This document shows positions 186-39,628 of a stretch of DNA of 64,000 bases, piece after piece. A program made the position numbers and the translations under genes. This stretch comes from Tubiluchus corallicola. Taxonomy: Eukaryota; Animalia; Priapulida. Each line of letters begins with the position of its first letter. The stretch's first letter is position 1. The stretch is taken from NCBI GenBank assembly GCA_030141605.1, contig JAQGDQ010002369.1, positions 434,001 to 498,000 on the forward strand, written 5' to 3'. The notes below the pieces were generated by a model. That model made no database searches and was not told where the DNA came from. It was given only the letters and a program-made list of their open reading frames with translations.

Positions 186-544
186 ATGTGTGAAAAAATA
201 ACCAAATGTCTATCAACAGCTTGCGCCTCAGCGACTGCTCTTGGAGCCGCTGCATGGATGTTACAAGAACCGCTCACTGAGTATATACAGACAGCAGCAA
301 AAGTCACAGAGCGATTTGGGGAGACCGTGAACGAGGGAACAAAAAAGACCTTTGAAGGCTTTTTTATACAGGAGCTGCAGGAGCATCTGGATACGGATCA
401 ACGTATTTTGGCGACCGTTATATAGAAAAATGCGACTCACTGACGCAGAGCCTTCCCTGCTTTACGTTTGGCGTTGGGTGCTTCGTACTTGGGGGAGTAG
501 CTATTATTACTCTAGTTTCATGCTATGAAAACATCAAAAAATAA
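186..544 (+). pseudogene. Small hydrophobic (Inc-like) protein, paralog A of a local YFGD-x-Y...C family; frameshifted in the T run at ~360-365
   Basis: RBS AAGGAG upstream. ORF 186-425 continues in another frame as TGAAGASGYGSTYFGDRYIEKCDSLTQSLPCFTFGVGCFVLGGVAIITLVSCYENIKK* (stop 542-544). Confidence 0.6.
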
Positions 545-553
545 GGATGATAT

Positions 554-954
554 ATGAATATTACAAATAATCTAAAATATTTTTCTAATGAGCTGGAGTT
601 GTTTCAAATGGTTAAACAGAGTCAAGACTCTGAATATTCTCGCATAAAAAGCCTTGCAATAATGATCTTCGTTTCAACAGGAGCAACAATTGGATCTGTT
701 CACTTTGGCGATTGTTATTTTGCGGATATTGTACTCATCTGTATCAAGATATCTCTTGTTTCGGTAATGCTGTAGCGTGTAGTGCATTGGCAGTACTGTC
801 TATATCTACTTTGGCCTACTTTCTAGCTAAAGAAACTAGCATGGGTTTTAGCAATCAAAGCGAACAGACAAAGACTGTACATTCTCAAAACACGAAGGAA
901 GATAAAAATTTAGAGTATATTCCAAATAGCGAGGGTACTTTCAACGTCTGTTAA
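554..954 (+). pseudogene. Small hydrophobic (Inc-like) protein, paralog B; frameshifted near 715-730
   Basis: ORFs 554-775 and 712-954 join into one protein collinear with the copy at 1758-2153 (GSVHFGDCY...CTHLYQDISCFGNAVAC). Confidence 0.65.
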
Positions 955-991
955 TCAATTGGTCGCAGGTTCGAATCCCGCACCTGGAGCA
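948..991 (+). pseudogene. 3' half of tRNA-Asn(GTT) (anticodon loop, T arm, acceptor 3' strand); att-like remnant
   Basis: CTGTTAA anticodon loop, TGGTC variable loop, GCAGG-TTCGAAT-CCCGC T arm (one mismatch), ACCTGGAG. No D arm or 5' acceptor strand upstream. Confidence 0.85.
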
Positions 992-1015
992 TCTTATGTA
1001 TATGGAGCCCCATTT

Positions 1016-1757: not shown

Positions 1758-2153
1758 ATGAAAATAGAAAATAATCTAAAATCTTTTTCTAGAAATTTGG
1801 AATTAGTCTAAACTATCAAGCAAAATCATGAGTTCGAAGATTCACGCATGAAAAATCTTGCAAAAATGATTCTCATTTCTGCAGGTGCTGCAATCGGAGC
1901 CACTTATTTCGGTGATTATCATATAGATGAATGTACTCATCTGTATCTAGATATCTCTTGATTCAGTAGTGGTGTAGCATCTTTTGCACTAACAATGCTA
2001 TCTGTATCTGCTGTGGCTTACTATCTAGCTAAACAAATTAGCATAGATTTTAGCAATCAAAGTGAAAAGACAAATACTGTACATTCTCAAGGCGTGAAGG
2101 AAGATAAAAATTTAGAGCATTCCAAATACGTGGGCACTTTCTGTGCCTGTTAA
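1758..2153 (+). pseudogene. Paralog B' with two in-frame stops
   Basis: MKIENNLKSFSRNLELV*TIKQ...GATYFGDYHIDECTHLYLDIS*FSSGV...GTFCAC*; collinear with 554-954. Confidence 0.8.
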
Positions 2154-2190
2154 TCAATTGGTCGCAGGTTCGAATCCCGCACCCGGAACA
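2147..2190 (+). pseudogene. Second tRNA-Asn(GTT) 3' half (att-like remnant)
   Basis: ctgttaatcaattggtcgcaggttcgaatcccgcacccggaaca, nearly identical to 948-991. Confidence 0.85.
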
Positions 2191-2194
2191 TCTT

Positions 2195-2222
2195 AAGGCC
2201 GGCCGGCAAGCCGGCCTTTTTT
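2195..2222 (+). terminator. Rho-independent terminator after the tRNA remnant
   Basis: AAGGCCGGC-cggcaa-GCCGGCCTT followed by a T run. Confidence 0.8.
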
Positions 2223-2360
2223 ATCTCCAAAGAACTTGAAAAAATGTAGAGACTTCATAGAACCTATCTCGCATAAATTTCCTGTTGCGCCAAACCAAGT
2301 TTTGAAGTTGTTTGGGCCTATAATAAAGCCTATGCCAATGGTTTTTGGAGGGTAGAAAAA

Positions 2361-3461
2361 ATGATGAGATGCTTTTTATTGGCAATCGTTTGTCTGTTTT
2401 CAGCTGTGGTGTCTTCTGAAAGAAAAGCTGAACCGGTCGTTCTTATGCAAAATTTCGATCCCCTTGAATGGGAACATGTTCATGTAAATATGGACAAAAT
2501 CGATGATCTTGCAGTCAAGTTATTAAAAAACTACCAGTTGCAAGCCCCTGATTGGAGTGAGATCCTTCCTCCGGGGTTAAGTTTTACTGAGAAAGCCGAA
2601 TACATTCTAGGATTAATCACTATCGATTTTTGCCACTGGGGGTTAACAAAAGCTCCTGAAGGCATTAGCAAATATGATTTTTATACAAAAACGGATCAGG
2701 GTGAAACCGTTCGAGGTTCTGGCGCTATGACTGAGCTGGCAAAAAATGCCTACCGGAAAGGAATTAGGCTTTTTGATGCCGCTTACATGCAAAAAGTAAG
2801 TGCAGACGATCTCAGACCTCATTTCACGGGCTTTGATGCCGCAGGCAAGCCGATCGAAATTCCCTTTTTGGAAAAGAGGGTTCAAGTCATGAATGAGACA
2901 GGAGAGGTTCTTGTAAAAAAATGGGGAGGTTCTTTTTTTCAGGTTCTACGTGCTGCTGAAGGAAGAGCCTTTAATAATGGGAAAGGGTTGGTAGAACTTC
3001 TTATTCATGATTTTTCCAGGTTTAGAGATGAAAATATCTACAAAGGGAAGAAGATTGGAATTTACAAACTGGCACAACTCTCTGTGATTGCTCTGCAAAA
3101 TGCCTTAGGTTCATATCCCGATTTTCAACCTTTTACTGATTGTGATGCATTAACTCTTTGCGCTGACTATCAAATACCAAGAAGTTTGCAAGCCTTGGGA
3201 ATTTTGGAATATGACCCCAAACTTGCAAATGCGATCGAACGGCAGGAATTGATACCTGAGGGCTCTTCGTATGAAATTGAGATACGAATGGCGACCGTCT
3301 TTGTCGGTCATCTGCTTCAAAAGAGCATTAATGATTCTTTAGCAGGCGAAGGAAAGCCTTTGATTACATCTCAAGAACTTGACTTTCTTCTTTGGAGTCA
3401 TGGACGTCAATTAAAAAGCACCACCACCAAGCACCACCTAACGCCGACAATCATGTATTGA
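2361..3461 (+). CDS. Queuosine salvage hydrolase (Qng1/DUF2419 family) with N-terminal signal peptide
   Basis: Family motifs IDFCHW, F..FRD, YKLAQL, ADYQIP..L..LGIL.Y, EIEIR, ELDFLLW and terminal HHLTPTIMY. N-terminus MMRCFLLAIVCLFSAVVSS. Confidence 0.9.
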   Translation: MMRCFLLAIVCLFSAVVSSERKAEPVVLMQNFDPLEWEHVHVNMDKIDDLAVKLLKNYQLQAPDWSEILPPGLSFTEKAEYILGLITIDFCHWGLTKAPEGISKYDFYTKTDQGETVRGSGAMTELAKNAYRKGIRLFDAAYMQKVSADDLRPHFTGFDAAGKPIEIPFLEKRVQVMNETGEVLVKKWGGSFFQVLRAAEGRAFNNGKGLVELLIHDFSRFRDENIYKGKKIGIYKLAQLSVIALQNALGSYPDFQPFTDCDALTLCADYQIPRSLQALGILEYDPKLANAIERQELIPEGSSYEIEIRMATVFVGHLLQKSINDSLAGEGKPLITSQELDFLLWSHGRQLKSTTTKHHLTPTIMY

Positions 3462-3472
3462 GGTTCCTACAA

Positions 3473-4187
3473 ATGAAAATGAAGCTCCTGTATGTTATTT
3501 TTTATTTCATCCTCACATCCAATCTTTCCGCAGAAAGAATTCTAATCGGGATAGCCGGAGGAACAGCCTCAGGAAAGACAACATTCGCAGAAATATTGCA
3601 AAATAACTTTTTTGAAGAAGCAATCGTCATTTCTTTGGACAACTACTTTAAAGAATTTCCCTCTCTTTCCCTTGAAGAGCTGATGAATCTGAACTGGGAC
3701 AGTCCTGATGTTGTCGATGTGGACCTGATGGTAGGACAGCTTTTAGCCTTGAAAGAGGGAAAGTCTGTGCAGCAGCCTGTTCCAAATTTAGAAACCTTTT
3801 CAAGAGAGCCTTTTACTATGAAAATAGATCCGGCCCCGGTCATCATTGTAGAGGGGATACTTCTTTTTGCTATTCCTGAAATAAGAGACATGTTCGATTT
3901 AAGGTTATACCTTGAGGTAAGCGATGACATCAGGCTTTTAAGGAGGCTTAACAGAGATATTCGGGAGAGGGGAGGAGACCTTCTATCCCTTTTCGGAACA
4001 ATATCTAGAGACCGTAAAACCTATGCATGATCTTTATATTGAACCAAGTAAGGAACATGCCCATTTCATCATTGAAAGCTATGAATGCACTAAAAAAGAG
4101 TGCCACCTTGTAGTGAAAAATAGAAGAACTGGTAAGGATCATCAGAAGCTTTCCCTTAAAGAAATGATGATGAAGTCTGAATTTTGA
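3473..4187 (+). CDS. Uridine-kinase-family nucleoside kinase with signal peptide; apparent +1 frameshift at T run 3990-3993
   Basis: IGIAGGTASGKTT P-loop, VIIVEGILLF, RLLRRLNRDIRERG. The shifted frame restores EQYLETVKPMHDLYIEPSKEHAHFII, the canonical Udk C-terminus. Confidence 0.85.
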
Positions 4188-4196
4188 CTGCATGGT

Positions 4197-4263
4197 TGTC
4201 TAATCAAAAGACCGGAGCATATTACAGTAGCCTTTTAAGACCGTCCGATAAGCCGGCCTTTTT
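4197..4263 (+). repeat. Degenerate third tRNA-Asn-tail/terminator remnant
   Basis: tgtctaatcaa...accggagcat...ttaagaccgtccgataagccggccttttt resembles 2148-2222. Confidence 0.55.
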
Positions 4264-4452
4264 CTATGGTCAAATCCACTCCTACTTAAGAAAGAACTAT
4301 TGGAAGATAGTTCAATATCCTCGTTAAGGATTTGGAGGGACTTTGGTCTGATTTTCAATCTCTGCTAAAATACATAAAATAAAGTTTCGGACTTATGTGA
4401 AATCTCTCTCATCTCTTAAATTCGGCATTTCCTCACCGAGCGGGGACGAGTA

Positions 4453-4953
4453 ATGACCATTGCAGTAATCACTGATGACTTTGAACAAACCGACTGGGAT
4501 ATTGTCCCTGCTCCTGATTTTGTTCCAATTCGTGGAGCTGACATCAAGATCGACCGGGTAGGGCTTGCAGCTCTTAGAGAATTAAAATCAAACCCAGAGA
4601 TGCTCACTGAGGAAAGGGAGGCTATTCACGAAAGGCTCGAAGCACGGAATGAATTCCGATTAGCCCAGAGTAAGGAAATTCAGGATCAATCAGTCTTCGA
4701 GGGAAGGGACGTTGTTCAGGTAAGAACTCATATCGGAGAACTGCCTCCCGGATGGAATGGCCCGATCAACAAATGTGCTCCCTGTTCAGGAGAAGTAACA
4801 ATCGCTGCTTTATCCATCTTTGCTGGGTTGGTTTGTGCGTGCTTTCCTTTAACAGCTCCCGCAGCTCCTTGGCTCTTGACTAATGGTGTTGTTATTTTAA
4901 GTCATCAAGTCCTTTCAGATTCGGCCAGAGTTATAGAGGAGATCAGAAAATGA
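4453..4953 (+). CDS. Hypothetical protein with C-terminal hydrophobic hairpin
   Basis: 166-aa ORF with VTIAALSIFAGLVCACFPLTAPAAPWLLTNGVVIL near the C-terminus. Stop overlaps the next ATG (ATGA). Confidence 0.75.
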   Translation: MTIAVITDDFEQTDWDIVPAPDFVPIRGADIKIDRVGLAALRELKSNPEMLTEEREAIHERLEARNEFRLAQSKEIQDQSVFEGRDVVQVRTHIGELPPGWNGPINKCAPCSGEVTIAALSIFAGLVCACFPLTAPAAPWLLTNGVVILSHQVLSDSARVIEEIRK

Positions 4954-5114
4954 TGTATTTATTTGCTTTTCTATTTGGAGCTGTCGTCTGGGCCATAGGT
5001 CGATATTTTTTTCTAAGTGAGTGGACGATTTATCCAAGTGCTGCTGCATTCTCAACAGTTGCTTTGTGGATGCGATACCGATACAGAAAGAAAAAAACAG
5101 CGAAAAAATCCTGA
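4950..5114 (+). CDS. Small 2-TM membrane protein with basic tail, paralog 1 (54 aa; not in ORF track)
   Basis: MMYLFAFLFGAVVWAIGRYFFLSEWTIYPSAAAFSTVALWMRYRYRKKKTAKKS*; GAGGAG RBS; ATGA coupling. Confidence 0.75.
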   Translation: MMYLFAFLFGAVVWAIGRYFFLSEWTIYPSAAAFSTVALWMRYRYRKKKTAKKS

Positions 5115-5149
5115 AATGACGATCAAAGAATATTCTTTTAGGATTAATA

Positions 5150-5311
5150 ATGATGTATATAATTCTTGCTCTGATAGGCGGTCTTTATGGATGGGCCTGC
5201 GAGTATTTTTCTCTTAGTCAATACTGGGTTTATCCCATAGCTATTGTGTCTACAGCAATTGCTATCTGGTTGAGAAGCCGATATCGAAAGAAGCAATCAA
5301 AAAGAACGTAA
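5150..5311 (+). CDS. Small 2-TM membrane protein with basic tail, paralog 2 (53 aa; not in ORF track)
   Basis: MMYIILALIGGLYGWACEYFSLSQYWVYPIAIVSTAIAIWLRSRYRKKQSKRT*; clear similarity to paralog 1. Confidence 0.75.
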   Translation: MMYIILALIGGLYGWACEYFSLSQYWVYPIAIVSTAIAIWLRSRYRKKQSKRT

Positions 5312-5340
5312 GATCGCCTTCCTCACGCATATGAAAGAAA

Positions 5341-5513
5341 ATGATATTCAATATATTACTCATAAGCTTATTCGGAAGCTTATTCGGAACAGGCACGTGG
5401 CTGTTGTAACATCTTTTAGAATGGAGTGACTGGGGTTTTTTCCGTGCGCATTTGCTTTTACTGCAATAGCATTTTGGGTGAGAAGTAGACTCCGAAAGAG
5501 AAAAAGAGCGTGA
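5341..5513 (+). pseudogene. Small membrane protein paralog 3, disrupted
   Basis: MIFNILLISLFGSLFGTGTWLL* ... then shifted frame PCAFAFTAIAFWVRSRLRKRKRA*. Contains a 12-bp duplication at 5364-5387. Confidence 0.65.
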
Positions 5514-5571
5514 TCACCACAGTAGACTTGCTTCTCTTTTGAGATAGAGGAGACCCGAAGATGACCAACTG

Positions 5572-5835
5572 TTATTGTTTTCTATAGTGCCTCTGTTTTG
5601 GCTTGCAAGCAAAGGGATAAAGATCCACAAACTCTTTCATTACACGGAGGAAGTTTTGATGATCTGTACTCATATCCCGTAAGATATCTCCTGAAATGAT
5701 CGAGACGTGATCATTCTTCCTACTAATAGAAGTATGAATAAAAATGTCTCCTGAGGATTCTTCTTTGATAATACCAAGATCTGCCAATTGATCTTTGTCT
5801 AATTGTGAATCTTCTTTAACGTCAAATGAGGATAT
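5572..5835 (-). pseudogene. Probable 3' fragment of a hypothetical gene
   Basis: Open frame with weak TTG start. Its 5' end abuts the cysC-like fragment on the other strand. Confidence 0.35.
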
Positions 5836-5839
5836 CCGC

Positions 5840-5959
5840 CTCGCGGGACTCAATGAACCCTATGATGTTCCTAAACATCCCGATGTCATCTGTGATACTG
5901 ATCGGTTAACAGTTCAAGAGTCTGTCTCTAAAATTTGCACCTATTTGGAAAAAAATTAG
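5840..5959 (+). pseudogene. C-terminal fragment of adenylylsulfate kinase (CysC-like)
   Basis: LAGLNEPYDVPKHPDVICDTDRLTVQESVSKICTYLEKN* matches the CysC tail pattern (G...PYE.P..P....DT....VEESV..I..YL). No N-terminal P-loop. Confidence 0.6.
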
Positions 5960-6053
5960 CAATACCTATTAAAAAGAAGAACTCTTGGAAAATCGTCTGG
6001 CAAACGATCTGAATGGATTGATTTTTTATTCTCTATGGTCTAGGAGAAAGAGC

Positions 6054-7110
6054 ATGGACCCAACAAGAGAAAAAATCTGTCTTGCCAGTGATAATTTCAC
6101 AGAAGCCCATCCTCTTGTTGTCCAGGCTGTTGTTGAGGCCAATAAAGGTTATGCCTCTCCTTATGGAGGCGATCTTTGGACCGAAGAAGCACAACAACTT
6201 ATTCAGGAAGTGTTTGGAAGGAAATGCAAGGTTTTCTTTGTTCCTACAGGGACAGGGGCTAATATTTTTGCTCTCAAACTTTCCTGCGACAGCCATGAAT
6301 CGGTTATCTGTACTGATGCAGCCCCATATTCACACTCTGGAATGTGGTTCTCCTGAATCCATTGTGGGATGCAAGCTTTTGATTGTCCCTCACCAGGAGG
6401 GGAAACTGAACCCTGAAGCGGTGTTAAAGGAGTTAAGAAGAGAAAAGGCGTTTGGAAAGCTTTCTACTTCTCCCCGGGTTCTGTCCGTCACGCAACCTAC
6501 GGAAGTTGGGACTCTCTATACCCTTGATGAACTGAAAGCTCTATTGAAGCTGTGCAAAGAAGAGAATCTTCTTTTCCATATGGATGGAAGCCGCCTTTAT
6601 AACGCTCTAGTGAGCTTAAAGGTTTCTTTTTCCGAGTTTGTCAGTGCCGTTTGTCCTGATACTCTATCCCTGGGAGGGACGAAAAATGGGTTGATGGGGG
6701 CTGAATCCCTGCTGATCTTCAATCCGGACTTGTATGAGGGTAGTGATCATCTACAAAAACAAACCCTTCAGCTTCTTTCAAAAATGCGATTCCTTTCAGC
6801 TTAGTACATCCCACTCTTTAAAAAAGATTTATGGCATCATCTTGCAGCCCAGGCAAATCAAAAGGCACAAGAAATCGCTTCAATAGTTAAAGAGACAGCT
6901 CACCTTTCTTTGGATTATCCAGTTGAAACCAATCAAATCTTTTTCACTGCGCCTCCTTCCTGGATTCCATTGATCCAGGAAAAAATCATTTGTTATCCCT
7001 GGAATCTGGAGCAGAACGAAGTTCGATTTATTACATCCTGGAACACTTCAAAACAGGATGTAAAAGACGTAAAAGCCATTCTCTCTGAAATATCCCGCAA
7101 TCCCATTTAG
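6054..7110 (+). pseudogene. ltaE: Low-specificity L-threonine aldolase, frameshift (~6320) and in-frame TAG (6802-6804)
   Basis: ASDN, YGGD.WT, TGTGAN, TQPTEVGTLY, HMDGSR, GGTKNG (PLP Lys), SKMRFLSA*Y, PVETNQIF, VRFITSW. Confidence 0.9.
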
Positions 7111-7140
7111 AAAACAAAATCCCATACTTCGTAGCATATT

Positions 7141-7159
7141 AGCCCCTCTCAGAGGGGTT
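7141..7159. terminator. Hairpin, possible terminator
   Basis: agcccctct-c-agaggggtt downstream of ltaE. Confidence 0.4.
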
Positions 7160-7246
7160 CTGTTGTTTCGGAATTTTACTAATTTTTTCTGTCAGGTTTT
7201 CGAGCTTGATTCCTGAAGAGAAGATCTGGTAGATTGCTGCCCTTTT

Positions 7247-7825
7247 TTGGAGGTCCCTTTGATAGAAATCAGTTCTGCGGCAGACCTTTTGTATGAGGCA
7301 GTCGATCAAGTAAATCAGCAGTATGAGAAAGATGAGAGTGAATACAGGGTAGAGGTAACAAATACGACCATCGATCCCAAAGAACCTGTCTTTTTACAAT
7401 TGAAGTATAGCAATGGAGCGATAAAACAAATTGGTGTAGTTCATCTCGTTCGTCTCGAAGGCCCCGACTGGGATGCAAGACCGTGGGAGACAATGGCACG
7501 GACGATCGATCAAGTGAGAGATTCTATTTTTACGAGGGTACGCTTGTATTTTTCTGCAGTGGACAGAGGTTTGTTCATTAATGAAAGGGGAACGATTTTA
7601 GATTTTAAAGACTGCAAGGTGGTCATTGGGAAGGATCAGACGTTTTCAGTGGATGGATGGACAGTTACTTTTAAGGGAAAAGAAATCAAAATTTTCCAGT
7701 TGGCCAGTGAGGGCATCATCGAATTTCAGAGAATGAAAAATGGGCACATTGAGTTCACCGATTCCATCGATCAACGAGAAGGGAAGGGGATGTTTATTCA
7801 TGAAGGCCGCATCTACCGAGCCTAG
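7247..7825 (+). CDS. Hypothetical protein (start uncertain)
   Basis: 192-aa ORF in the operon-like run; no recognised motif. Confidence 0.55.
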   Translation: MEVPLIEISSAADLLYEAVDQVNQQYEKDESEYRVEVTNTTIDPKEPVFLQLKYSNGAIKQIGVVHLVRLEGPDWDARPWETMARTIDQVRDSIFTRVRLYFSAVDRGLFINERGTILDFKDCKVVIGKDQTFSVDGWTVTFKGKEIKIFQLASEGIIEFQRMKNGHIEFTDSIDQREGKGMFIHEGRIYRA

Positions 7826-7836
7826 GGAGTTGAAGA

Positions 7837-8190
7837 ATGAAGAAGGTTGTTATTGTATTCGTATTGTTGATGAGTATTGCCTATGCAGAGACTCATCGTG
7901 TGCTTCAGTTTGAAAATGAGCATGTCAAGGTTTGGAAAACGATTATTTTCCCCAACCAGCCTTTAAAAATGCACCGGCATGACCGGTCTCGAGTTGTGGT
8001 TAGCCTCAAGGGAGGTGTCCTCACTAAAATTGAGGATACAGGGGAAGAGTCTGAGCTTGTTTTCGAGTCGCATAAAGCCTACTGGCTAGATGAGGATCCT
8101 CCGAATACCTTGCATGCAGACATCAATGAATCGAATGAACCTATCGAGGTCATGGTCATTGAGCTGAAGCAGGGAAAAAAGGACTACTGA
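7837..8190 (+). CDS. Exported cupin-fold protein
   Basis: Signal peptide; FENEHVKVW...P...LKMHRHD...VVV.L.GG...LHADIN...IEVMVIELK. Confidence 0.8.
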   Translation: MKKVVIVFVLLMSIAYAETHRVLQFENEHVKVWKTIIFPNQPLKMHRHDRSRVVVSLKGGVLTKIEDTGEESELVFESHKAYWLDEDPPNTLHADINESNEPIEVMVIELKQGKKDY

Positions 8191-9018
8191 TGAGAAAAAT
8201 ATTTTTACTCCTCTCAGCAATGTGTTTCTCATCTAATATTCTGTTGGCGGACGAAGTCAATGCAGAACAAGATCCAATCGAATATATTCAAAGATGTCGC
8301 AATCATTATCAGGATATCTTTATAGAAGGATTAATATTAGAAGTTGGGGAGAACCCTGTGCGATGCAAGATATGAACTCATCAAACCTGTCCTCGACCGA
8401 TTCGTTGGATCCTTTTCTGTTCTTGATGTAGGTGCCTGTGAAGGTTACTTTTCCTTTCGGGTTGCCTCGGACTATCCTGCCCAGTGCCACATGATCGAGG
8501 GGGGATATTATCAGGACAAGCCCAATAAGTTGCTGGCATTATCTAGATTCAACAATTTCCCAAATATTTACCTCATGAATACGAGGTTGAATCTCGATGT
8601 TCTGAGAGAAATCTCCGAGGCGAAACACTTCGATATTGTCTTCGCCTTTTTGGTCGTTCATCAGATGGCAGATCAAAGACATGCACTCTATGAGTCCCAT
8701 TTGGAAGAGTCAAAAAAATACATAGAGCTCCTCCTTTGTCTCGGCTCACATCTGATTATTGAGACTTCTACAGATTTGTATCCTCATCTGGATCAGTATG
8801 TAATGGAATTATGTGAGGAACTTGATGGGGAATATTTGGGAGAGCTGCCCAGATATAAAAAGGGAAAACCCACAGCTAACGGACGGTTCTATCTGTTCAA
8901 AAGCAATGATGATCAGTGTTCGCCAGATCCCATCTCTTCTGAGATGTTCCAAAGGTTGAATGGAGTTTATCCTGAAAAGGATGAAGTCATTGCAAGTTCC
9001 GAAAAGATTTTAGAATGA
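8190..9018 (+). pseudogene. Class I SAM-dependent methyltransferase with signal peptide; frameshift near 8345-8355
   Basis: VLDVGACEGYFS motif I and FDIVFAFLVVHQ. N-terminal part lies in ORF 8190-8375. Confidence 0.75.
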
Positions 9019-9085
9019 GGATTTGATGTTCATCTTCAGTGACTCTTACTATAATGGCTGGTCATTGAAAAACCGGTTTTGAAAT

Positions 9086-9871
9086 ATGTTGAGCTGGAAA
9101 GAGATCATTCAAAATTATGTTATCAAATATTCGAATCAGATAGGAAAAACCACTCAGCCGTTGAAAGAACGCTTTGGGATCGGTTATTTTACCTATCATC
9201 GGATTGACAACGCAGGAAATTATACAGTCCTTGTAGATAGCCCAAAATGGGCTGAACATTATGTAAGTGAACAAATTTTTCTCAATGATCCCTATCTAAG
9301 GCATCCTTCCCGATACCGATCAGGGATTACTTTAATCGAGAATCATGGTTCTGAAGAATACAGAGAACTTGCATTGAAAGCAGGGAAAGAAGTTCTCAAT
9401 ATGGACATGGGAGCAATGTTAATTGAGAAAAAAGATAGCTGTGTAGAGTTCTTTGGGTTTTCTGGGAATAATGAGACAAGCTCCCTTCAGAACCTCTACT
9501 TAACCATCCTCAGTTGCTAAAATCCTTTGCTATTCATTTCAAGAGAGAGCTTTGTCCTGTTCTGATCGATATGGAAAATGAGCCCGGCTCACTCATGGAT
9601 CTAAAAGGGGAAGACTTTCTCTGCGATGAACTCATTTGCCCAGAGGTCATATCTTCTACTCGTCTTGACTATTATAGAGATTTGGGGATGAGTCCTGAGG
9701 CTGAAAAAGCGGAAAAGCTTTCTCCCAGATAAAGAGACAGCTAATATTCTTGGATTGTCAAGCCGAACGGTTGAGTACTATTTTGAAAATATCAAAAACA
9801 AGCTCTCCTGTTGGAGTAAGAAAGAAATTTTAAGCATGGCCAGAGTCTTTGAAGAATTCGGACTTCTGTAA
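9086..9871 (+). pseudogene. LuxR-family regulator (autoinducer-binding-like N-domain + HTH); frameshifts and internal deletion
   Basis: Three frames. KLSPR followed by KETANILGLSSRTVEYYFENIKNKL (LuxR HTH) lacking the intervening helix. Confidence 0.85.
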
Positions 9872-9872
9872 C

Positions 9873-9891
9873 TACCGTATTCACTACGGTA
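9873..9891. promoter_or_regulatory. Perfect inverted repeat TACCGTA-N5-TACGGTA, candidate LuxR-type operator
   Basis: Palindrome directly after the LuxR stop and upstream of the GNAT gene. Confidence 0.55.
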
Positions 9892-10051
9892 ATTCTCTAT
9901 CCTAACTTCTGTCATATTTCTTCCTTCAATCATAACGGAGGAAAATATGGTTCGTTCTCATCAAATTGATTCCAAAACAACCAGGGTAATGATGCTGCCC
10001 ATACTCTTCCTTATGTTTGTCTATTTCGAAGACATTCCATTTGAGGATAAT

Positions 10052-13989: not shown

Positions 13990-15972
13990 GTGATGTTTAA
14001 ACTCCTTTATCGATCCCTTTGTCTGGGAATCGCTTTTCTATCAGGAAATCTGGCGCATTCAGAAGAGAAAGCTGATCCTGCTTGTCATGAAACTGAGATT
14101 GAAATGCCCGTCTTTTCTGGTGGGCCTTATGGAGGTGGATCTTGGCTTTTTCTCCGGCCTGCTCCCTCGGATGGTGATTTGCAATATGGCACCCATCTCA
14201 GATTGACAGCACGCCGGCTAATTTGCATGCTTTTGTTTTGGAGCTGACACCAGACTACCACAGTTGTTTTCGTTTGAATTTTGGATATCAAATTCCTGAG
14301 ACGGGTTACAACATTCACTCGAATTATTTCTATTTCAGCGATAGCAAAAACGAACAAGTGAACAATCTTCCTTTCGACGAATTTATACAAAATTTCTTAG
14401 GAGGAAGCTTATCAACGGCCAATGGATCGGAAAAGCAAAAAATTCATCAGGCAGATCTATTATTCGGAAAGCAATACGTAGTCGATCATCATCTAGATTT
14501 GCATCCCTATGCTGGCCTTCATTTTGCGGATGTCAAACGCAACCTAGATGTCCTGTATACTGATTTAGTTCTTAATCCTTTTCCATCGAATTTAGAGGGA
14601 ACATTAGAGAGTCATTATTGGGGCGTAGGACCTCAGGCAGGAACGAGTTTTAAGTGTCCTGTGTCCTCCCTGATCAGCATTGCAGGTCATTTTGGAGCAG
14701 GGGCATTATTTGGCCGGCAACATTCCAGCATTAACTCAAATTCTATACGAGGCAATTTCGCCCAAAGTTTTAATGATCATAGTTCCCGTTTCCGGGTGGT
14801 TCCTGTTTTAAATAGTGATGTAGCTCTTGTGTTTACATATCCCTTTAAAAAACATCATTTTGCTTTGGAAATAACCGCAGGTTTCGAAGTGGACTACTTC
14901 TTCAGAGTGGTCAATCGGATCAACCCATTTAATGGTTATATTAACAATGCCAGCACAACTCCTGTGAAACAGACAAGTAATTTAGGGTTAGGCGGTCCTT
15001 ATGCGAAGGTTTCATTGATCCAAATACCGAAAAAATCGGATCCAAACGCTTCGGCTCGTTTTATGGCTGATGCTATTGATTCAGTCTCAGGTCTCTATGG
15101 GGGATTTACAAGTGCATGGCTGAAACCATCGCCCAATAATAATGACCTGACGTATGCAACGCTCCATACAAACGGGGTTGCGGATAGATCCCAAGCAGCT
15201 TCGACTGGTTATGATTGGACTGGAAGTTATGAAGCGGGCTATATGTTCTGGAATAATGTTGATCTGCGTGCAAATTATTTACATTTTCACTCGAGTGATA
15301 GTACATCGGTCTCAGCCGGTGCAAACCAGGGAATTAGCAGTCTCAACGCCAGCGGTCCTTCTGGAGTCTTATTTTCTAATGCAAGCTCACGTGTTAAATA
15401 CAAACTCGATCAAGTTGATTTAGTATCAGGAAAACGGATGCAATTAGGCAAGCTGTGGAATCTGTATACGTTTTTTGGTCTGCGTTACCTCTACCTAAAA
15501 CGGATCCAAGACAACGCTTATTCTGGAGGGACGCCTCCGTTAACTACAGAATTCAAGTCTCCATTATTAAAAAGTCGTTATCGAGGGTTAGGACTCATTT
15601 TTGGGTTAGATCCCTATTTAAGGATCATTGATAATTTACGGCTGGTTGGGCATGTAGACGTTGCTTTTTTGGTTGGTAAGATAAGATCCTCATTAGATCA
15701 GGTAAATACAGGATTGGTGGGCGATTCTTCCAATACTTTAAGAGTTCATAAGAGATTTTCTATTGTGCCGGTAGTTGATGCAAAAGCGGGACTAAATTAT
15801 GCGTATAAAGTAAATAACCATTTCGCCTTCGATATCGAAGCTGGATATCAATTTGCAGGCTATTATCGAGCCATAGACTTGGTTTTTCCAACGCTCCTGA
15901 CTGGCCCTCGAGCAAATAAACAGCGACCTAAGGCTAACTGGACCTTATCTTATGCTGGGAATTATTTTTTAA
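13990..15972 (+). pseudogene. Tandem two-domain Lpg1974/MOMP-like outer-membrane beta-barrel protein; frameshifts ~14195 and ~15905
   Basis: Two repeats of (W)L[RK]P.P...DL.Y ... S.[YW].G.G ... GPY. The corrected end GLEQINSDLRLTGPYLMLGIIF* carries a terminal Phe. Confidence 0.75.
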
Positions 15973-17065
15973 GCCAATCCGTCCCAATCTCATTTGCTGT
16001 TAGAATGCCGTCAGCGATATCACTCACTCTGATTTCAAAGGGTTCGTTGTAAATCGTTTCCCCTTCTTTGCAGGCTCTTTTGGCGATGATTTCTGCAATT
16101 TCTTTCGTAGGATCTTTGATTCCGAGCTGGCTCAAAGAGACAGGAAGCCCGATTTGGGTTGCAAAGTGGAGGACTTTTTCGATCAATGATTGATCCTTTC
16201 CTTCGAGAACGAGCTGGGTAAGAGTCCCAAAGGCTACTTTCTCACCATGTAGATAGGAATGTGCTTCAGGTATGACAGTCAGGCCATTATGAATCGCATG
16301 GGCCGCTGCCAGTCCGCAAGACTCGAAACCGAGGCCGGAAAGTAGAGTGTTTGCTTCTACAATTTTCTCAAGCTCCGGTGTAACTGTTTTTGTCTGTATA
16401 TCCAGACAGGCTTGAGCGCCAGATTGGAGGAGAGTCTCATAGAACAATTTTGCCAATGCCAGAGATGCTTGTGTAGGAAGCCCTCCCCGCATGTTTTTTT
16501 TATTGCCCTCTACACTGGTCACTGCTTCAAAGAAGGTGGCCAGGGCGTCACCCATGCCGGCTACTAGAAATCGAAGGGGGCTCTTGGCAATAATTTCTGT
16601 ATCGACAAGGACAAGATCGGGATTCTTGTTATGGATACTGTAATGATCAAAATCGCCATTTTTCTTGTAGATGACAGAAAGAGCACTGCATGGCGAATCG
16701 GAAGAGGCGATGGTCGGACAGCTAATGACTGGCAAATCTAGGCCTCTCGCAACCGCTCTGGCGGTATCTATTACCTTGCCTCCACCTGTCCCAACGACGG
16801 TTTTGATCTCATTTTTTTTAACGAGTGATTTGATGAGTTCGATTTCTTCTTCAGAACATTCTCCGTTGAAATAGTGGATGAAGTATTTCATAGAGACTTT
16901 ATCGAAGGTCTTTTTCCAGCTGTCTTTCAACAGTTTGTCAGCTGATTTGGATACGATGATTAAAACCGGATCCTTACATCCTAAATAGGCGAGCTCTTCA
17001 CCCAGGCTGAGTATGGCTCCTTTTCCTTGGACATAACGATGTGGGGCGCAAAAAACGGATAACAT
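15962..17065 (-). CDS. gldA: Glycerol dehydrogenase
   Basis: P.RYVQG, GGGKVIDTA, PTIASSDSPCSALSVIY, AGMGDALAT.FEA, EANTLLSGLGFES.GLAAAHAIHNGLT, HGEKVAFG. Confidence 0.95.
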   Translation of the reverse strand: MLSVFCAPHRYVQGKGAILSLGEELAYLGCKDPVLIIVSKSADKLLKDSWKKTFDKVSMKYFIHYFNGECSEEEIELIKSLVKKNEIKTVVGTGGGKVIDTARAVARGLDLPVISCPTIASSDSPCSALSVIYKKNGDFDHYSIHNKNPDLVLVDTEIIAKSPLRFLVAGMGDALATFFEAVTSVEGNKKNMRGGLPTQASLALAKLFYETLLQSGAQACLDIQTKTVTPELEKIVEANTLLSGLGFESCGLAAAHAIHNGLTVIPEAHSYLHGEKVAFGTLTQLVLEGKDQSLIEKVLHFATQIGLPVSLSQLGIKDPTKEIAEIIAKRACKEGETIYNEPFEIRVSDIADGILTANEIGTDWLKK

Positions 17066-18036: not shown

Positions 18037-18901
18037 ATGAGTTTAGCATTAGCATTAACTAGAAGAGAAGCAGCGCAGCTCAGGTCTCCTGATTTTACGC
18101 CTGTTGACGATAAAGTAGAGAGAGTAAGCGCTTTATATGTCTTTACACAGATCTGTAATGGAAGCTCCTTCTGTGACAAAGCTTGAAGCACTTGTTAACA
18201 TGGGAGATAAACTATTGGAAGTGAGGCCTAATATCCACCTCTGGAGTCTGAATGATATAGCCAGGGAAAGATTAGCGCAGCTTCCTGGAGCTAGCGCTCC
18301 TGAAGAGACGAGAGAAAATCGCGTATTGAGTAAATTCACAGAATGGGTTGTCCGGTCCAATTCCACTCTTCACCTTGGGTCGGGTTTTCAAACTGAGGGT
18401 TTGTTTCGAGTGTCTGCATTTAAATCCAAATTAGACCATTTAATGGAAGGCAAGTCAGAGATCGAAAGCGCTGATGCGTTAACGATTGTTGATGCATTAA
18501 AGAAGGTAGCTATTGAATTGCAAGTCAGCAATATTGCCAATCTATCTGCTCAAGAAGCTGATCGATCGAAGGAGGACTTTGTTAGAGATCTCCGTGCAAT
18601 AAGTCCCCATCAGAGAACTGCTTATTTTGCACTAGCTTCTCTTGCTCGAAATATCTACATGGAACGGGAAGTGAATAAAATGGATGGCATCGCATTAAGG
18701 GGATCTATGCCCGGGGTTCCAAAAGATCTTGATTTTGCCGATCCTGGAGTTAGAGCTCGTCTACAACATAATGATCCAAGCTGTTATGAATATGGACTTT
18801 TAGATATGTTGGGATTGAAAAGCCCTACTGAACTGGAAACTCTATTGGAAAATCTGGATGACATCCATCAGCGCCTTCCTGCAATGCAGTCGGCAGAGTA
18901 G
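18037..18901 (+). CDS. RhoGAP-domain effector candidate; N-terminal ~33 codons in another frame (ORF 18137-18901 intact)
   Basis: GFQTEGLFRVS (Arg finger), DALTIVDALKK, VNKMDGIAL. An upstream ATG at 18037 with RBS reads MSLALALTRRE... Confidence 0.7.
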
Positions 18902-18923
18902 TATTTCTTGAATTGAAGAACAT

Positions 18924-18950
18924 AAGGAGAAGCCTTTGGGCTTCTCCTTT
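18924..18950. terminator. Bidirectional terminator between convergent genes
   Basis: AAGGAGAAGCC-tttg-GGCTTCTCCTT. Confidence 0.8.
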
Positions 18951-18960
18951 CACATGAATG

Positions 18961-19747
18961 TTATGCTGTTTTGAATGCGTTGATGAGAGTCTCATCAGTC
19001 AAATCAGATACACCAGAGTTTAGAGAGTTTGTAGCAGTTTCGTATTCCTGATTGGTTTTAACGTCAAGTTGTGAAACTGCGACATTCAAATTTGAAATTA
19101 TGCCCTTGTCACTCGTTATATTGTAGCTCGTAGAGTCCATGGTTTGCGTATCTTTCTGTGCCTGGTTCAAAGCTGCGGTAGCTTTTGCCTGATCTGCAGC
19201 TAGAGCTTTTTTAGCAGCTGCTACTTGTTCAGGCGTGCTCTTAGGATTGTTAATGATAGCATTTTGTTTATCTTCGTCCTTCATTGCATCGTTGAAGATC
19301 TTATTTTGCTTATCATGATCTGTTTGCGCTGCATCATGCTCTTTTTGTAAGTTATTAATCTCGTCTTGGTAATGTTGGATCGCCTGTTTGTCACCCGCTT
19401 CAGTTTTTTGGTCTTGGAACATCTGATTTAAGGTATTAGAAGCCTGTTGAACTTCTTTGTCGAACCCCGTTCAGTTTATCATCAAACTGGTTCAGGATAC
19501 CTTGAATTTTCGTGTTTCCTGTATATTCTTTCTTTAACGAGTCGACATATGACTGAGCCCCATGCAAGTCCTTCTCATACTTAGCCATAGCTGCTGCCAA
19601 GTCTTGAGGGTTCTTTGCCTGTTCTATCTGCATCAAATCGCTTAGTAGTGTGGTCTGCCACTCATCTAATTTATTGGCTTCATCCGCTCTACTATCGGCT
19701 AGAGTTCCGTGAGCTCCTTGAGTCCCTGATATTGCTGAAATGTTCAT
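18961..19747 (-). CDS. Coiled-coil secreted-type protein; one apparent extra base in the C4 run at ~19465-19468
   Basis: Removing one base joins NG-FDKEVQQASNTLNQ-MFQDQK. S/T/G-rich N-terminus MNISAISGTQG; Q/A/D-rich helices. Confidence 0.7.
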
Positions 19748-20113
19748 ACCTTCTTCCCCTCTGGTTTTTGTTATTTGGCGTAATACGCCTTAAATATATT
19801 TTACAATATTTCGAATTCTTTTTAAAGATTTTTATTAATATTTTAATAAAAGTTTTGATTTATCTAATTAGGGCTTAAAGAGAAAGAAACGTCAGAGGTA
19901 TGGTTGTGTGTAAGTGGTTGGAAGTTAGTTGATTATGCTATATAAGAAAGTTTAGCGGGGACGTGGTCTCTTTCTAAGTAATTAATTATTAATGCATTGT
20001 TACTTATGATTTGAGCTTGTGGGTTTTGTAATTATTAATTAATGGGTTTTTATATGATCTATTAATAACTTTTTTTATACTAGTAGCCGATTCAAGCAAT
20101 ACAGGAGATAATA

Positions 20114-20620
20114 ATGGCTATTAGTTTAGGACAGTTTAGGGAGAGAGTACAAGGGGTTCAAGATAGCATCCAGGAAACTGGCTCTGTTTCCGAACACAAT
20201 AAGACGGCAATTAGGGGCCTATTGGCAGATATTCGTAACATCCAGGTAGATGGGACAAACACGGATTTTCAGGAACGTGCAACGCTGGAGGGTAGGGTTA
20301 TCCAATTGGCAGATTTGGCCGGAGTAGATCCCTTTTCCGGGGTAGAGGACCGTGTGGTAAGAGGAAGCGCGGCTAGAACCCAAGGGATTTGTGGCCAGGT
20401 CATGATGGGCCATCTTAAAAGAAATGCCAAGACTTATGGCACTGTAGCTGCTCTCGGAGCATTTGGAGTAGGTTGGACCTATTTCGGAATTCAGGGCGTA
20501 TTAACTGTTGCTTCAGGTATCGTAGGTGGAGCAACTTTGATGCAAAAAGACCCAAATGTTATACCCTTTGAGGCATATCGCCCGCCTGATGAACAGGTTG
20601 GCGAACGGTTGATTGACTAG
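20114..20620 (+). CDS. Inc-like protein (bilobed hydrophobic segment)
   Basis: YGTVAALGAFGVGWTYFGIQGVLTVASGIVGGATLM; RBS AGGAG. Confidence 0.7.
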   Translation: MAISLGQFRERVQGVQDSIQETGSVSEHNKTAIRGLLADIRNIQVDGTNTDFQERATLEGRVIQLADLAGVDPFSGVEDRVVRGSAARTQGICGQVMMGHLKRNAKTYGTVAALGAFGVGWTYFGIQGVLTVASGIVGGATLMQKDPNVIPFEAYRPPDEQVGERLID

Positions 20621-28175: not shown

Positions 28176-29465
28176 TTATGAACTTAGAGAGACGGGTTGA
28201 AGGTAAACCATGGTGATCTGGTTGTCTTCATCGCTATCGATCACAGCCTCGAGGTCCACTGCATCAATTTTATAGGCATGGTTGGAGTAAGGATCCCGTA
28301 CAAAGTATTCATCGACGATGATGAAGTGACCTGCCAATTTGTGGTGGGTAATGGCCAGTATGACCGGTTGCCCTGATGCAGTTAATTTGGTCTGAAGGTC
28401 AGATAAGAGAGCAGGTTCGTTGTTTACGTGCATTCTCTCATGATTATCAGTTCTTTCTGCAGCTACTTTCTGCGCGCTTTCATATTCACTCTGAGAATAA
28501 TAATAGATAACCGGAACAGCATTGTATCCGAGATCTCCTATGGTGGTCTCAGCATTCATTGTTTCTGCTAGATTTTGAACATTGGCCAGCTGTTTGGTCA
28601 TATGCCATTCCCAATAACACCCGGTTGTAAAAGAATCTGCCCGGCCGGGCAGTAATCTTCCTTCCTGACCTGTCGGAACCAAGTCGAGTAAAAGCATGGT
28701 CGCAGCTGCCGGACCACATCCCTTCGATGTAGGCTGACAGACCAGCGCATGTGTTTTTCCTGAAGCTGTTGGGTAGGTCCAGTAGGATTGGACTGTCGCA
28801 AATCTGCTCGATGAGGTTCTCGGAAGTTGGCAGCCAGGGAAGGTCTTATAGTCCTGACGGTCTTCAAATCGAAGTGTATGGGTACCTCTAGCTGGGGTAG
28901 GCGGCAGGGGATTAGGAAGAGTGAAGGTCCCTCTATCAGGAGGACTGTCATAAGAAGATGCTGGGAAAGTTTGGCGATTTGCTGGCGGGCTATGATAGGA
29001 GCTAGCTGGAAAATGGGTAGGAGATTGAGGAGGAGTGTGCATCTCATCTTCTGAGGCTTGTGCCCTCTTCGTTGAAAAATCCGGTTTGGGTAATGATCTC
29101 ATTTCACTGACCAGGACTACAGGCAATACCTGATGCCTAGACGATTCCATTCTTTGAGCTAAAGGCGGTAGATGAAGTTCACTTTCTTTGTAATCTGTTT
29201 CATCTTCGAACTCCGCTTCTTCTACCTGAGAAAAATGCTCGTTTACGAACATTCTTCTTTTCCGAGGAAAGTCTTCGGGATTCGTTTCTTGATTCACAAC
29301 TGAGACTCTGTCTCTGAGAGAGGAGGAGGAAGAGGTAGGCAAAGGAACAAGCGGCACAACTACAGAGCGTTGTGTTCTTTTCCTTTTGGTGTGTGTATTT
29401 TCCTTTAGCTCAGGAGGAGGTAATTGAATCCTTTGTTGGTCAGGACGTTTTGGCGGGGTTGCCAT
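28176..29465 (-). CDS. Effector-like protein: disordered P/S/R-rich N-terminus + papain-fold (C39/AvrRpt2-like) cysteine peptidase domain
   Basis: QPTSKGCGPAAATMLL (Q..C), GHFIIVDE (H..D), VRDPY. Confidence 0.7.
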   Translation of the reverse strand: MATPPKRPDQQRIQLPPPELKENTHTKRKRTQRSVVVPLVPLPTSSSSSLRDRVSVVNQETNPEDFPRKRRMFVNEHFSQVEEAEFEDETDYKESELHLPPLAQRMESSRHQVLPVVLVSEMRSLPKPDFSTKRAQASEDEMHTPPQSPTHFPASSYHSPPANRQTFPASSYDSPPDRGTFTLPNPLPPTPARGTHTLRFEDRQDYKTFPGCQLPRTSSSRFATVQSYWTYPTASGKTHALVCQPTSKGCGPAAATMLLLDLVPTGQEGRLLPGRADSFTTGCYWEWHMTKQLANVQNLAETMNAETTIGDLGYNAVPVIYYYSQSEYESAQKVAAERTDNHERMHVNNEPALLSDLQTKLTASGQPVILAITHHKLAGHFIIVDEYFVRDPYSNHAYKIDAVDLEAVIDSDEDNQITMVYLQPVSLSS

Positions 29466-29570
29466 AAATTAATCACTCATTATTAAATAAATAATTATTA
29501 GTAAATGTTTTATAGCAAATATATGTTAATGTCAATTAAACGGTAATTAATTTAAAAAATTAGTAATTGG

Positions 29571-30629
29571 TTACACAGAAGTTAAATGGGATTCTCCTAC
29601 TCCCTTTCCTGATTCTAAATCAACCATTCCAATTGTAATCTCATCTGTTGCTTCTCTCTCTGTACGTTCAGCTTTATAGTCATCCTCTAGCCCCGCTGCA
29701 CCGCCTGTGAGAGCTTCTGATTCAGCATCTCGCTGAGCGCGGATCTTCTCAACCATCATAAGCAGACGTCCTCTTGGTGTATCGGGTCTGCGAACGGGTG
29801 AAGAGGCACTAAGGCCACGCGATAAAACAGGAGGAGAAGGAGTACTATCAGGAGAACGAAGACTTTCGGTCGATTTGGCCTCTTCTTCAATGATAGCTCT
29901 TTCAACCTGTTGGAAATTTTCTGTTTTCAAGCACATTGACTGCATTCTTTTTGGACAGAGAACCCCTCGATAAGGTCGGGGCATCTGTTTGATTCTAGTC
30001 AAAATGGCTGGCCATTCCCTTTCTTGTACAAAAATACCAGGATTGACCGAACGAGAGAAGAGTTTCAAAATCTCGCAAGTACCACGCACAGATGGAATCA
30101 CATCATCCTGACTGTATAATGCTTTGAGATCTCCAATCGTTCGTTCATCTCTCCCCCAATTTTGCAGGTATCTTTCCTTGAGGCGGGACAATGCTGCCGC
30201 AGTTGCATAACTTGTCCAGGAAAGCCACTTTAAAGTACTGTCTGATGAACTGCCATCTTTGAAATTGTCCACTGTTTGAGAAATGAGTCCCACACTCCAT
30301 GCGACGAGTTCAAGAGCGGAAAAAGCATACGAGCGGGCTTTTTTGACAGGAATGCCTCCAACGGTATCTGTATTATAACGGTTAAGGATCTTGCCGGCGG
30401 CCTTATGGACAACATCCATGCGCTGTAAATTGTTCTCAATAGTACGTATGGACACATCCAGTCCCATACCTGCGATTCTTTCAGGATGTTCGGTATTTTC
30501 TTCCATCACTTCACTGATGGCTTTGATGGTTCTTTGAACTGTAGTATTTGCGGCATCCCAATCCGCAATATGCCGCGTAGTTGCTTCCAGCATGTCTGCA
30601 TTAGAATCACAAAATAGTCGTACGACCAT
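29571..30629 (-). CDS. Inc/effector-like hypothetical protein
   Basis: Likely start MVVRLF (30629). Paired hydrophobic segments and S/P-rich C-terminal region. Confidence 0.65.
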   Translation of the reverse strand: MVVRLFCDSNADMLEATTRHIADWDAANTTVQRTIKAISEVMEENTEHPERIAGMGLDVSIRTIENNLQRMDVVHKAAGKILNRYNTDTVGGIPVKKARSYAFSALELVAWSVGLISQTVDNFKDGSSSDSTLKWLSWTSYATAAALSRLKERYLQNWGRDERTIGDLKALYSQDDVIPSVRGTCEILKLFSRSVNPGIFVQEREWPAILTRIKQMPRPYRGVLCPKRMQSMCLKTENFQQVERAIIEEEAKSTESLRSPDSTPSPPVLSRGLSASSPVRRPDTPRGRLLMMVEKIRAQRDAESEALTGGAAGLEDDYKAERTEREATDEITIGMVDLESGKGVGESHLTSV

Positions 30630-30714
30630 AATAATCTCTCTTGAAAATGTTTTGGGGCGAGAGATTAAAATAATTTCTGCAATTTTGTAAAATATTTTTT
30701 TTTTTTTAAAGACT

Positions 30715-33243: not shown

Positions 33244-33275
33244 AAAAACAACTTATCTAGCCCTTCGTTTAGATG

Positions 33276-39407: not shown

Positions 39408-39628
39408 AATCATCCATTGATGCGGTCCTAAACCTGTTCTCGAATCGACTTCATTATATCTTATGGGTATTTCTCTTATATTAAAAAAACTACTACCTAT
39501 TCGTTTTAATGTTCTTACTTGAGAATTATTCGATCTTATTTAAAAATGCCTCTTTTTAAGTTACTATTTTTATAAAACATGAAGAATAAAATAAATTATT
39601 TTGTATAATTTGTTGAGGTAAAAAAAAT

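What the first reader, a model, noticed from the sequence alone, without database searches (positions are those of the whole stretch)
4453..5513. Hydrophobic-tailed protein coupled to an array of three tiny paralogous membrane proteins (toxin-immunity-like)
Seen: a 166-aa gene with a C-terminal hydrophobic hairpin overlaps (ATGA) a 54-aa 2-TM gene. A 53-aa paralog and a third, broken paralog follow. They share a ...P.A...[ST]..A.W.R.R.RK pattern with a basic tail and are all below the ORF-track cutoff. Known: membrane-acting toxins are commonly coupled to small TM immunity genes, and diverged orphan immunity copies accumulate downstream. Inference: an undescribed pore-forming toxin/immunity (or effector/partner) module in an environmental chlamydia.
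Basis: partly seen in the sequence, partly recalled or inferred. Interest (0 to 1): 0.72.

Follow-up and report, generated by a model that had tools for sequence, protein, structure and literature searches.

The report
Orphan membrane protein with tiny partners
In a chlamydia-type bacterium, a gene for a 166-residue protein with a greasy tail is followed by three related genes for tiny predicted membrane proteins (the third broken); the only relative found anywhere carries both parts joined in one chain, so the two likely work as a pair, possibly as a toxin and its antidotes, which is untested.

Summary
A 166-aa ORF (4453-4953) overlaps a 54-aa ORF by ATGA; a 53-aa paralogue and a broken third copy follow. 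Paralogy beats 0 of 5000 shuffles, and pN/pS is 0.45-0.69, so these are constrained genes. New evidence: a profile of the small proteins alone, run on 1.84 billion proteins, gave one real hit (P0003, another assembly). Its N-terminal 75 residues are homologous to the 166-aa protein, fused in frame at the same junction. Linkage is therefore conserved, but n = 1. P0003 lacks the second hydrophobic lobe, which weakens a 'pore-forming hairpin' reading. No known toxin, immunity or holin family matched, no delivery gene lies nearby, and five searches of 103-400 Chlamydiota genomes found no homologue. The 166-aa protein also meets the sequence criteria for an inclusion-membrane (Inc) protein. The locus sits in a decaying, tRNA-scarred region. 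Best reading: a two-part membrane module working like a toxin with diverged antidotes (0.35). Rivals: Inc-type effector plus partner, or a split membrane protein. The scan holds no look-alike sequence; a similar three-microprotein layout was noted in another genome.

The parts
4453..4953 (+). 166-aa orphan protein: conserved acidic N-terminal 17 aa, predicted helices 35-80, conserved H.G.L.PG.NGP.N.CA motif (93-109), strong hydrophobic segment 115-133 ending in CFP, weak second segment 137-155; pI 4.8
4950..5114 (+). s1: 54-aa small protein, two predicted membrane segments (second marginal), basic tail, pI 10.4; ATGA overlap with the 166-aa gene; GAGGAG upstream
5150..5311 (+). s2: 53-aa paralogue (38% identical to s1), pI 9.9; AGGA upstream
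5341..5513 (+). s3: broken third paralogue (12-bp duplication, stop at 5407-5409, frameshift in the T-run 5436-5441); it diverged under purifying selection before it broke
5544..5585 (+). 42-bp remnant resembling the junction between the end of the 166-aa gene and the start of s1 (71% to 4933-4974); weak
   Evidence: family D8; score 36; 1 of 300 shuffles

Best explanation
The 166-aa gene and the small-protein genes form a linked two-part module whose products likely sit together in the bacterial membrane, where the small two-helix proteins would bind and neutralise the hydrophobic tail of the larger, possibly toxic, protein, with the extra diverged copies likely serving as spare or differently specific antidotes. 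Shown: the genes are constrained coding sequences; s1 overlaps the upstream stop; only the small gene was multiplied; another assembly has the two parts fused at the same junction; the last copy and a downstream junction remnant are decayed. Inferred: membrane insertion with the basic tail inside (positive-inside rule, established knowledge), co-translation through the ATGA overlap, binding, toxicity and neutralisation. How the larger protein would reach a target is unknown; with no delivery gene nearby, an intracellular addiction-type role on an acquired island is as likely as attack on other bacteria.
For: Layout: one upstream gene, a coupled small gene, diverged tandem paralogues, a broken distal copy and a junction remnant. 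This is the layout of homogeneous polyimmunity loci (PMC3482391, passages) and of tsaI strings behind the membrane-depolarising toxin TspA (PMC9484751, abstract). Conserved linkage: P0003 was found with the small-protein profile only (E 2.3e-4 among 1.84e9 proteins). Its N-part matches the 166-aa protein (BLASTP 1e-13 pairwise; score 109, 0 of 5000 shuffles); its C-part matches s1 and s2 (85 and 93, 0 of 5000 each) and s3 weakly (40; 3 of 5000). 0 of 10 other window proteins are in that collection, so P0003 comes from another assembly. A 54-aa immunity protein has precedent in circular-bacteriocin clusters (PlcI; PMC7452424, passages). Acidic upstream protein (pI 4.8) and basic small ones (9.9-10.4). 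The region shows integration scars and decay.
Against: No toxin, immunity or defence family match in Pfam, PHROGs, PADLOC or NCBIfam. Imm17, the two-helix immunity family listed in PMC3482391, was not hit. No exporter, Rhs/CdiA part or peptidase-ABC transporter among the neighbours scanned. The homologue is fused and lacks residues about 20-82 and the second hydrophobic lobe; a toxin fused to its antidote would be self-defeating unless that copy is disarmed or the fusion is an assembly error. ATGA ends are common in this genome (9 of 68). No sign of positive selection: all pN/pS estimates are below 1. Hydrophobic-hairpin orphans in chlamydiae are by default Inc candidates (4-10% of proteomes, PMC3048545). 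Linkage rests on a single homologue whose DNA I could not see.
Confidence: 0.35

Rival explanations
1. The 166-aa protein is an Inc-type type III substrate that would be inserted into the host vacuole membrane by its C-terminal hairpin; the small proteins would be co-expressed bacterial membrane partners or small members of a tandem expansion.
For: Two hydrophobic segments (115-133, 137-155) joined by a short uncharged Pro/Ala/Thr loop and flanked by charges, with long predicted helices upstream. This matches the criteria and loop composition in PMC3048545 (passages), which lists IncC (178 aa) and CT556 (159 aa) with C-terminal hairpins. Tandem Inc expansions are described (PMC3290821, passages). 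The N-terminal 17 aa are conserved while the next 60 are missing in P0003, as a secretion signal might be. Unchecked notes on the same assembly describe animal genes, suggesting an invertebrate host.
Against: The second lobe is weak (1.08) and absent in P0003. The small proteins start hydrophobic at residue 2 and have no soluble N-terminal stretch. No clear heptad pattern (best a/d hydrophobic fraction 0.57). It does not explain why only the small gene multiplied.
Confidence: 0.25
2. The two genes are the split halves or two subunits of one small polytopic membrane protein of the bacterial envelope (three helices in P0003), with no conflict role; the extra copies are drifting duplicates in a decaying region. 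The small domain may derive from the last hairpin of an EamA transporter.
For: P0003 is an intact 130-aa frame despite two large length differences and the fusion. The 2 hits among 396 genomes with the four-row profile are both the C-terminal helices of EamA transporters. Against one of them s1 scores z 6.3 and the P0003 C-part z 5.1; the 7 non-EamA membrane proteins score at most z 2.1.
Against: The EamA likeness was picked as the best of about 400 genomes; profile-profile probability is only 23-54%; the second EamA scores z 0.9-1.3 with s1-s3; Pfam EamA is not hit by the small proteins. The fusion lies in a Lys/Arg-coded, probably A-rich junction of a singleton Logan record and may be an indel error. 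s2 and s3 were constrained as stand-alone genes.
Confidence: 0.25
3. The small proteins are themselves the active, membrane-damaging agents (holin-like, or like the 57-aa GhoT/OrtT toxins, recalled), and the upstream protein restrains them.
For: Two helices with a strongly basic tail; weak hits to Pfam Phage_holin_2_3 (s2 E 0.014, s1 E 0.34) and a PHROG holin (E 0.053). An acidic upstream partner placed first is the usual antitoxin position (established knowledge).
Against: The hits are far below the cut-off (15.8 against 28.8 bits). No match for s2 in 50,697 phage records or for the family in viral contigs. No endolysin among the neighbours scanned. No Rfam antitoxin RNA or conserved hairpin.
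Confidence: 0.1

Closest known systems
Homogeneous polyimmunity loci of polymorphic toxin systems (PMC3482391, passages); TspA/tsaI strings of S. aureus (PMC9484751, abstract)
   Same: One upstream gene followed by tandem, diverged paralogues of a membrane partner; decayed distal copy and a junction remnant
   Different: No trafficking domain or secretion system part nearby, no known toxin or Imm family, far smaller proteins, a fused homologue, an obligate intracellular host group
Small membrane immunity proteins of circular bacteriocins (PlcI/GaaI, about 54 aa; PMC7452424, passages) and class II microcins (recalled)
   Same: About 54 aa, hydrophobic and cationic, next to a hydrophobic partner
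   Different: No sequence match; no ABC exporter or DUF95 gene; three copies; Gram-negative chlamydial host
Chlamydial Inc proteins with a C-terminal hairpin, e.g. IncC and CT556 (PMC3048545, passages)
   Same: Size, two hydrophobic segments with a short uncharged Pro-rich loop, helical soluble part, lineage-specific
   Different: Weak second lobe that is missing in the homologue; coupled tiny partner genes; secretion untested
EamA/DMT transporter, last helical hairpin (Pfam PF00892)
   Same: YFFL.EW-like loop, last helix and charged tail align with one chlamydial EamA
   Different: Only two helices; probability 23-54%; no Pfam hit

Membership tests
Polymorphic toxin / polyimmunity locus | Small gene directly behind and coupled to the toxin gene, with tandem paralogues | tested here: met
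Polymorphic toxin / polyimmunity locus | N-terminal trafficking domain or linked delivery system (Rhs, CdiA, LXG, PAAR) | tested here: not met
   No family on the 166-aa protein or on the neighbours scanned; the rest of the genome is not held
Polymorphic toxin / polyimmunity locus | Recognised toxin or Imm domain (e.g. Imm17) | tested here: not met
Polymorphic toxin / polyimmunity locus | Linkage conserved in other genomes | tested here: inconclusive
   1 homologue, linked but fused; none
Polymorphic toxin / polyimmunity locus | Toxicity and specific rescue | not testable with these tools
   needs expression tests
Chlamydial Inc protein (166-aa ORF) | Two hydrophobic segments with a loop under 30 aa, about 40 aa in all, loop without charges | tested here: met
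   115-133 and 137-155, best 40-aa mean hydropathy 1.6; second lobe weak; Kyte-Doolittle only
Chlamydial Inc protein (166-aa ORF) | Chlamydia-specific, no known cellular domain | tested here: inconclusive
   No domain; the organism of P0003 is unknown
Chlamydial Inc protein (166-aa ORF) | N-terminal type III signal and inclusion-membrane location | not testable with these tools
   needs secretion and localisation tests
Phage holin (HP1 family) | Score above the Pfam cut-off; lysis-cassette context | tested here: not met
   15.8 against 28.8 bits; no phage match; no endolysin seen
Circular bacteriocin / microcin cluster | Linked ABC exporter and maturation genes | tested here: not met
   Neighbours are a uridine kinase, a Thr aldolase, a queuosine salvage protein and decayed genes
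EamA/DMT transporter | Five-helix repeat matching PF00892 | tested here: not met
   only a hairpin-level likeness

The most novel reading that the evidence does not exclude
A new family of membrane toxin-antidote modules in animal-associated chlamydiae, with a homogeneous array of minimal two-helix antidotes (perhaps cut from an EamA hairpin) that protect against variants made by rival strains. This would mean that obligate intracellular chlamydiae fight each other inside a host.
Probability: 0.2. Interest if true: 0.72.

Novelty: new variant of a known kind. Interest (0 to 1): 0.4.

Why it matters
If the pair is a toxin with antidotes, it would be a minimal membrane conflict system of a new sequence family in Chlamydiota; my paper searches listed nothing describing such a module, though I read only passages of five papers. 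It is cheap to test in E. coli. If it is an Inc with a partner or a split membrane protein, it is one more lineage-specific chlamydial orphan in a decaying region, of modest interest. The family has only two known loci, so its reach is narrow either way.

Tried and rejected
Homologue searches without result: 166-aa protein among 5.8e9 proteins (0 of 133 candidates); s1 (no candidate); the two-row profile with P0003 returned only P0003 (1 of 1167). Genome, metagenome and viral contig scans: empty; one search gave 2 loci, both a chance YFSFPDWI match in an ABC permease. Plasmids and phages: empty; one hit at E 0.3. PDB sequences: nothing (E 2). Two of the three hits (P0001, P0002) are repeat proteins and were dropped. 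Whole-genome searches in Chlamydiota: small profile 44 of 400 at E <= 0.05, best 2.7e-4; I inspected 25 of the 46 matches and none was a small ORF of this layout. 166-aa protein 2 of 400 at E about 0.01, inside 420-aa multi-pass ORFs. Two-row profile 0 of 103 and 0 of 390; four-row profile 2 of 396, both EamA. These searches had no positive control genome, the samples overlap, and no close relative is held (best TyrRS identity 66% among 300), so they mean 'not found in those searched'. AlphaFold2 of the 166-aa protein: mean pLDDT 46, not used for a fold search. Complex prediction of residues 84-166 with s1: no verdict, alignments not used, no evidence either way. No RNA holder listed. X2 contigs do not cover 5352-5509, so the s3 breaks could not be checked. 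I first thought the broken neighbours were assembly errors because X2 differs by 8 indels and 1 substitution in 2000-9500; rejected, since most of these shorten intact frames (e.g. 366 to 259 aa) and none restored a gene. Promoter and terminator scans at chance level (4 against 4.1; 2 against 1.5); no Rfam match or significant spacer hairpin. A protein-level test of the downstream remnant was not run (script machine lost).

Full report
Observation. The four ORFs lie as described: a 166-aa gene at 4453-4953, s1 (54 aa, 4950-5114) overlapping its stop by ATGA, s2 (53 aa, 5150-5311) and s3 (5341-5513). s3 carries a 12-bp duplication, a stop at 5407-5409 and a frameshift in the T-run 5436-5441. 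All three share P.A...[ST]..A.W.R.R.RK, and W.R.R.RK occurs only these 3 times in the window. Pairwise scores of 111, 109 and 83 were reached by 0 of 5000 shuffles, also when shuffling in blocks of 10. pN/pS is 0.47 (0.34-0.70) for s1-s3, 0.45 (0.29-0.61) for s2-s3 and 0.69 (0.43-1.25) for s1-s2. So all three diverged as coding genes, s3 broke late, and there is no sign of positive selection. Contigs of a second run of the same sample match the junction and all of s2 without difference. A 42-bp remnant of the same junction lies at 5544-5585 (1 of 300 shuffles).

Organism and setting. GroEL is 76-78% identical to its best records, among them a Rhabdochlamydiaceae and a Parachlamydiales genome, in a capped scan, and the window has an ATP/ADP translocase. 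TyrRS is at most 66% identical among 300 Chlamydiota genomes, so no close relative is held. Unchecked notes on the same assembly describe invertebrate animal genes, so this is probably a co-assembled symbiont. The first 7 kb are decaying: a split Thr aldolase whose break near 6325 is shared by the second run, a truncated uridine kinase, an APS-kinase-like remnant (label recalled, no family hit), and a duplicated, broken membrane ORF next to tRNA-half-like repeats (tRNA likeness read by eye, ARAGORN found 0 genes).

The one homologue. Direct searches were empty. A profile of s1 and s2 against 1.84 billion representatives gave 3 hits: two repeat proteins and P0003 (130 aa, E 2.3e-4, profile 1-52 on residues 77-127). 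Although the query held only the small proteins, the first 75 residues of P0003 match the 166-aa protein in two blocks: residues 1-17 (41%) and 83-142 (37%), with H.G.L.PG.NGP.N.CA and CFP conserved (score 109, 0 of 5000 shuffles). P0003 lacks residues about 20-82 and the second hydrophobic lobe, and it runs in frame from ..ARK into MKY.., where the window has ..IRK-stop overlapping MMY. It is a singleton on an 87,653-base Logan contig. None of 10 other window proteins is in that collection, so it comes from another assembly. I could not see its DNA, so an indel error at the junction is not excluded, and its organism is unknown. Five searches of 103-400 overlapping Chlamydiota genomes found no further member, without a positive control.

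Anatomy. The 166-aa protein is acidic (pI 4.8) with predicted helices at 35-46 and 52-80, a strong hydrophobic segment at 115-133 (2.27) and a weak one at 137-155 (1.08); the model is poor (pLDDT 46). The small proteins are basic (pI 9.9-10.4), hydrophobic from residue 2, with 7-9 Lys/Arg mostly in the tail. By the positive-inside rule (established knowledge) they would be inner-membrane hairpins with both ends inside. No family passes a cut-off in Pfam, NCBIfam, PHROGs or PADLOC; the best are sub-threshold holin hits. The small domain resembles the last hairpin of one chlamydial EamA transporter (z 6.3 for s1, 5.1 for the P0003 C-part; profile probability 23-54%), but that protein was the best of about 400 genomes, so this is a lead only.

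How it likely works. The conserved linkage and fusion make it likely that the two products act together in a membrane. What needs explaining is that only the small gene multiplied and diverged to about 38% identity under constraint, followed by a broken copy and a junction remnant. The closest known logic is a toxin gene with a string of immunity paralogues (PMC3482391, passages; PMC9484751, abstract), and 54-aa membrane immunity proteins exist (PMC7452424, passages). I give this 0.35. Against it: no toxin or delivery domain, ATGA ends are common here (9 of 68), and the homologue is fused and lacks half of the hairpin. An Inc-type effector with a partner (0.25) fits the hairpin criteria and the known tandem Inc expansions (PMC3048545 and PMC3290821, passages), but not the lost lobe. 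A split three-helix membrane protein (0.25) fits P0003 best. Small proteins as the toxic part (0.1) rests on weak holin hits.

Comparison and verdict. It may work like a toxin with a homogeneous immunity array, but it is not a member of any polymorphic toxin, bacteriocin, holin or EamA family by the features tested. It meets the Inc hydropathy criterion, with secretion untested. Paper searches listed no description of such a module in chlamydiae; apart from the five papers named I saw only listings, and no supplements. The scan holds no look-alike sequence. Verdict: a real, previously unmatched two-part membrane module known from two loci, role unproven; new variant of a known kind; interest 0.4.

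Noticed in passing
window 506-996 and 1709-2195: Duplicated unit, 1.2 kb apart (83-93% identical blocks): a broken two-helix membrane ORF (554-951 and 1757-2150, both with internal stops) ending in a tRNA-3'-half-like piece; looks like repeated integration scars at a tRNA. ARAGORN and Rfam find no whole tRNA.
   Followed up: partly
window 3392-7100 and 9086-9950: Cluster of broken genes: uridine kinase cut at about 4030, APS-kinase-like remnant at about 5800-5960 (label recalled), Thr aldolase split near 6325 (shared by the second run), autoinducer-binding ORF without its expected C-terminal part.
   Followed up: partly
window 2193-2221 and 4235-4263: A 29-bp GC-rich repeat ending in a T-run (86% identical) lies after the second tRNA-like piece and about 190 bp upstream of the 166-aa gene; may mark unit borders (family D12).
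   Followed up: no
window 14223-16052: 609-aa ORF with two Legionella_OMP (PF05150) stretches; a further similar-looking outer-membrane ORF at 36007-37104 was not scanned.
   Followed up: no
window 30715-35909 (minus strand): Two tandem 842/877-aa ORFs that look like LTA-synthase/sulfatase domains fused to C-terminal leucine-rich repeats (read by eye, not scanned).
   Followed up: no
window 18137-20620, 28176-30782, 37374-40565: Several orphan ORFs without Pfam match, some with hydrophobic stretches; likely effector or Inc candidates.
   Followed up: no
L110 (G308) EamA protein, residues about 250-295: Its last hairpin resembles the small proteins (z 6.3 with s1, 5.1 with the P0003 C-part); possible origin of the small domain.
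   Followed up: partly
whole window: Other pieces of the same assembly carry animal genes according to unchecked notes: the window is probably a chlamydial symbiont co-assembled with an invertebrate genome, with no close relative among the genomes searched.
   Followed up: no
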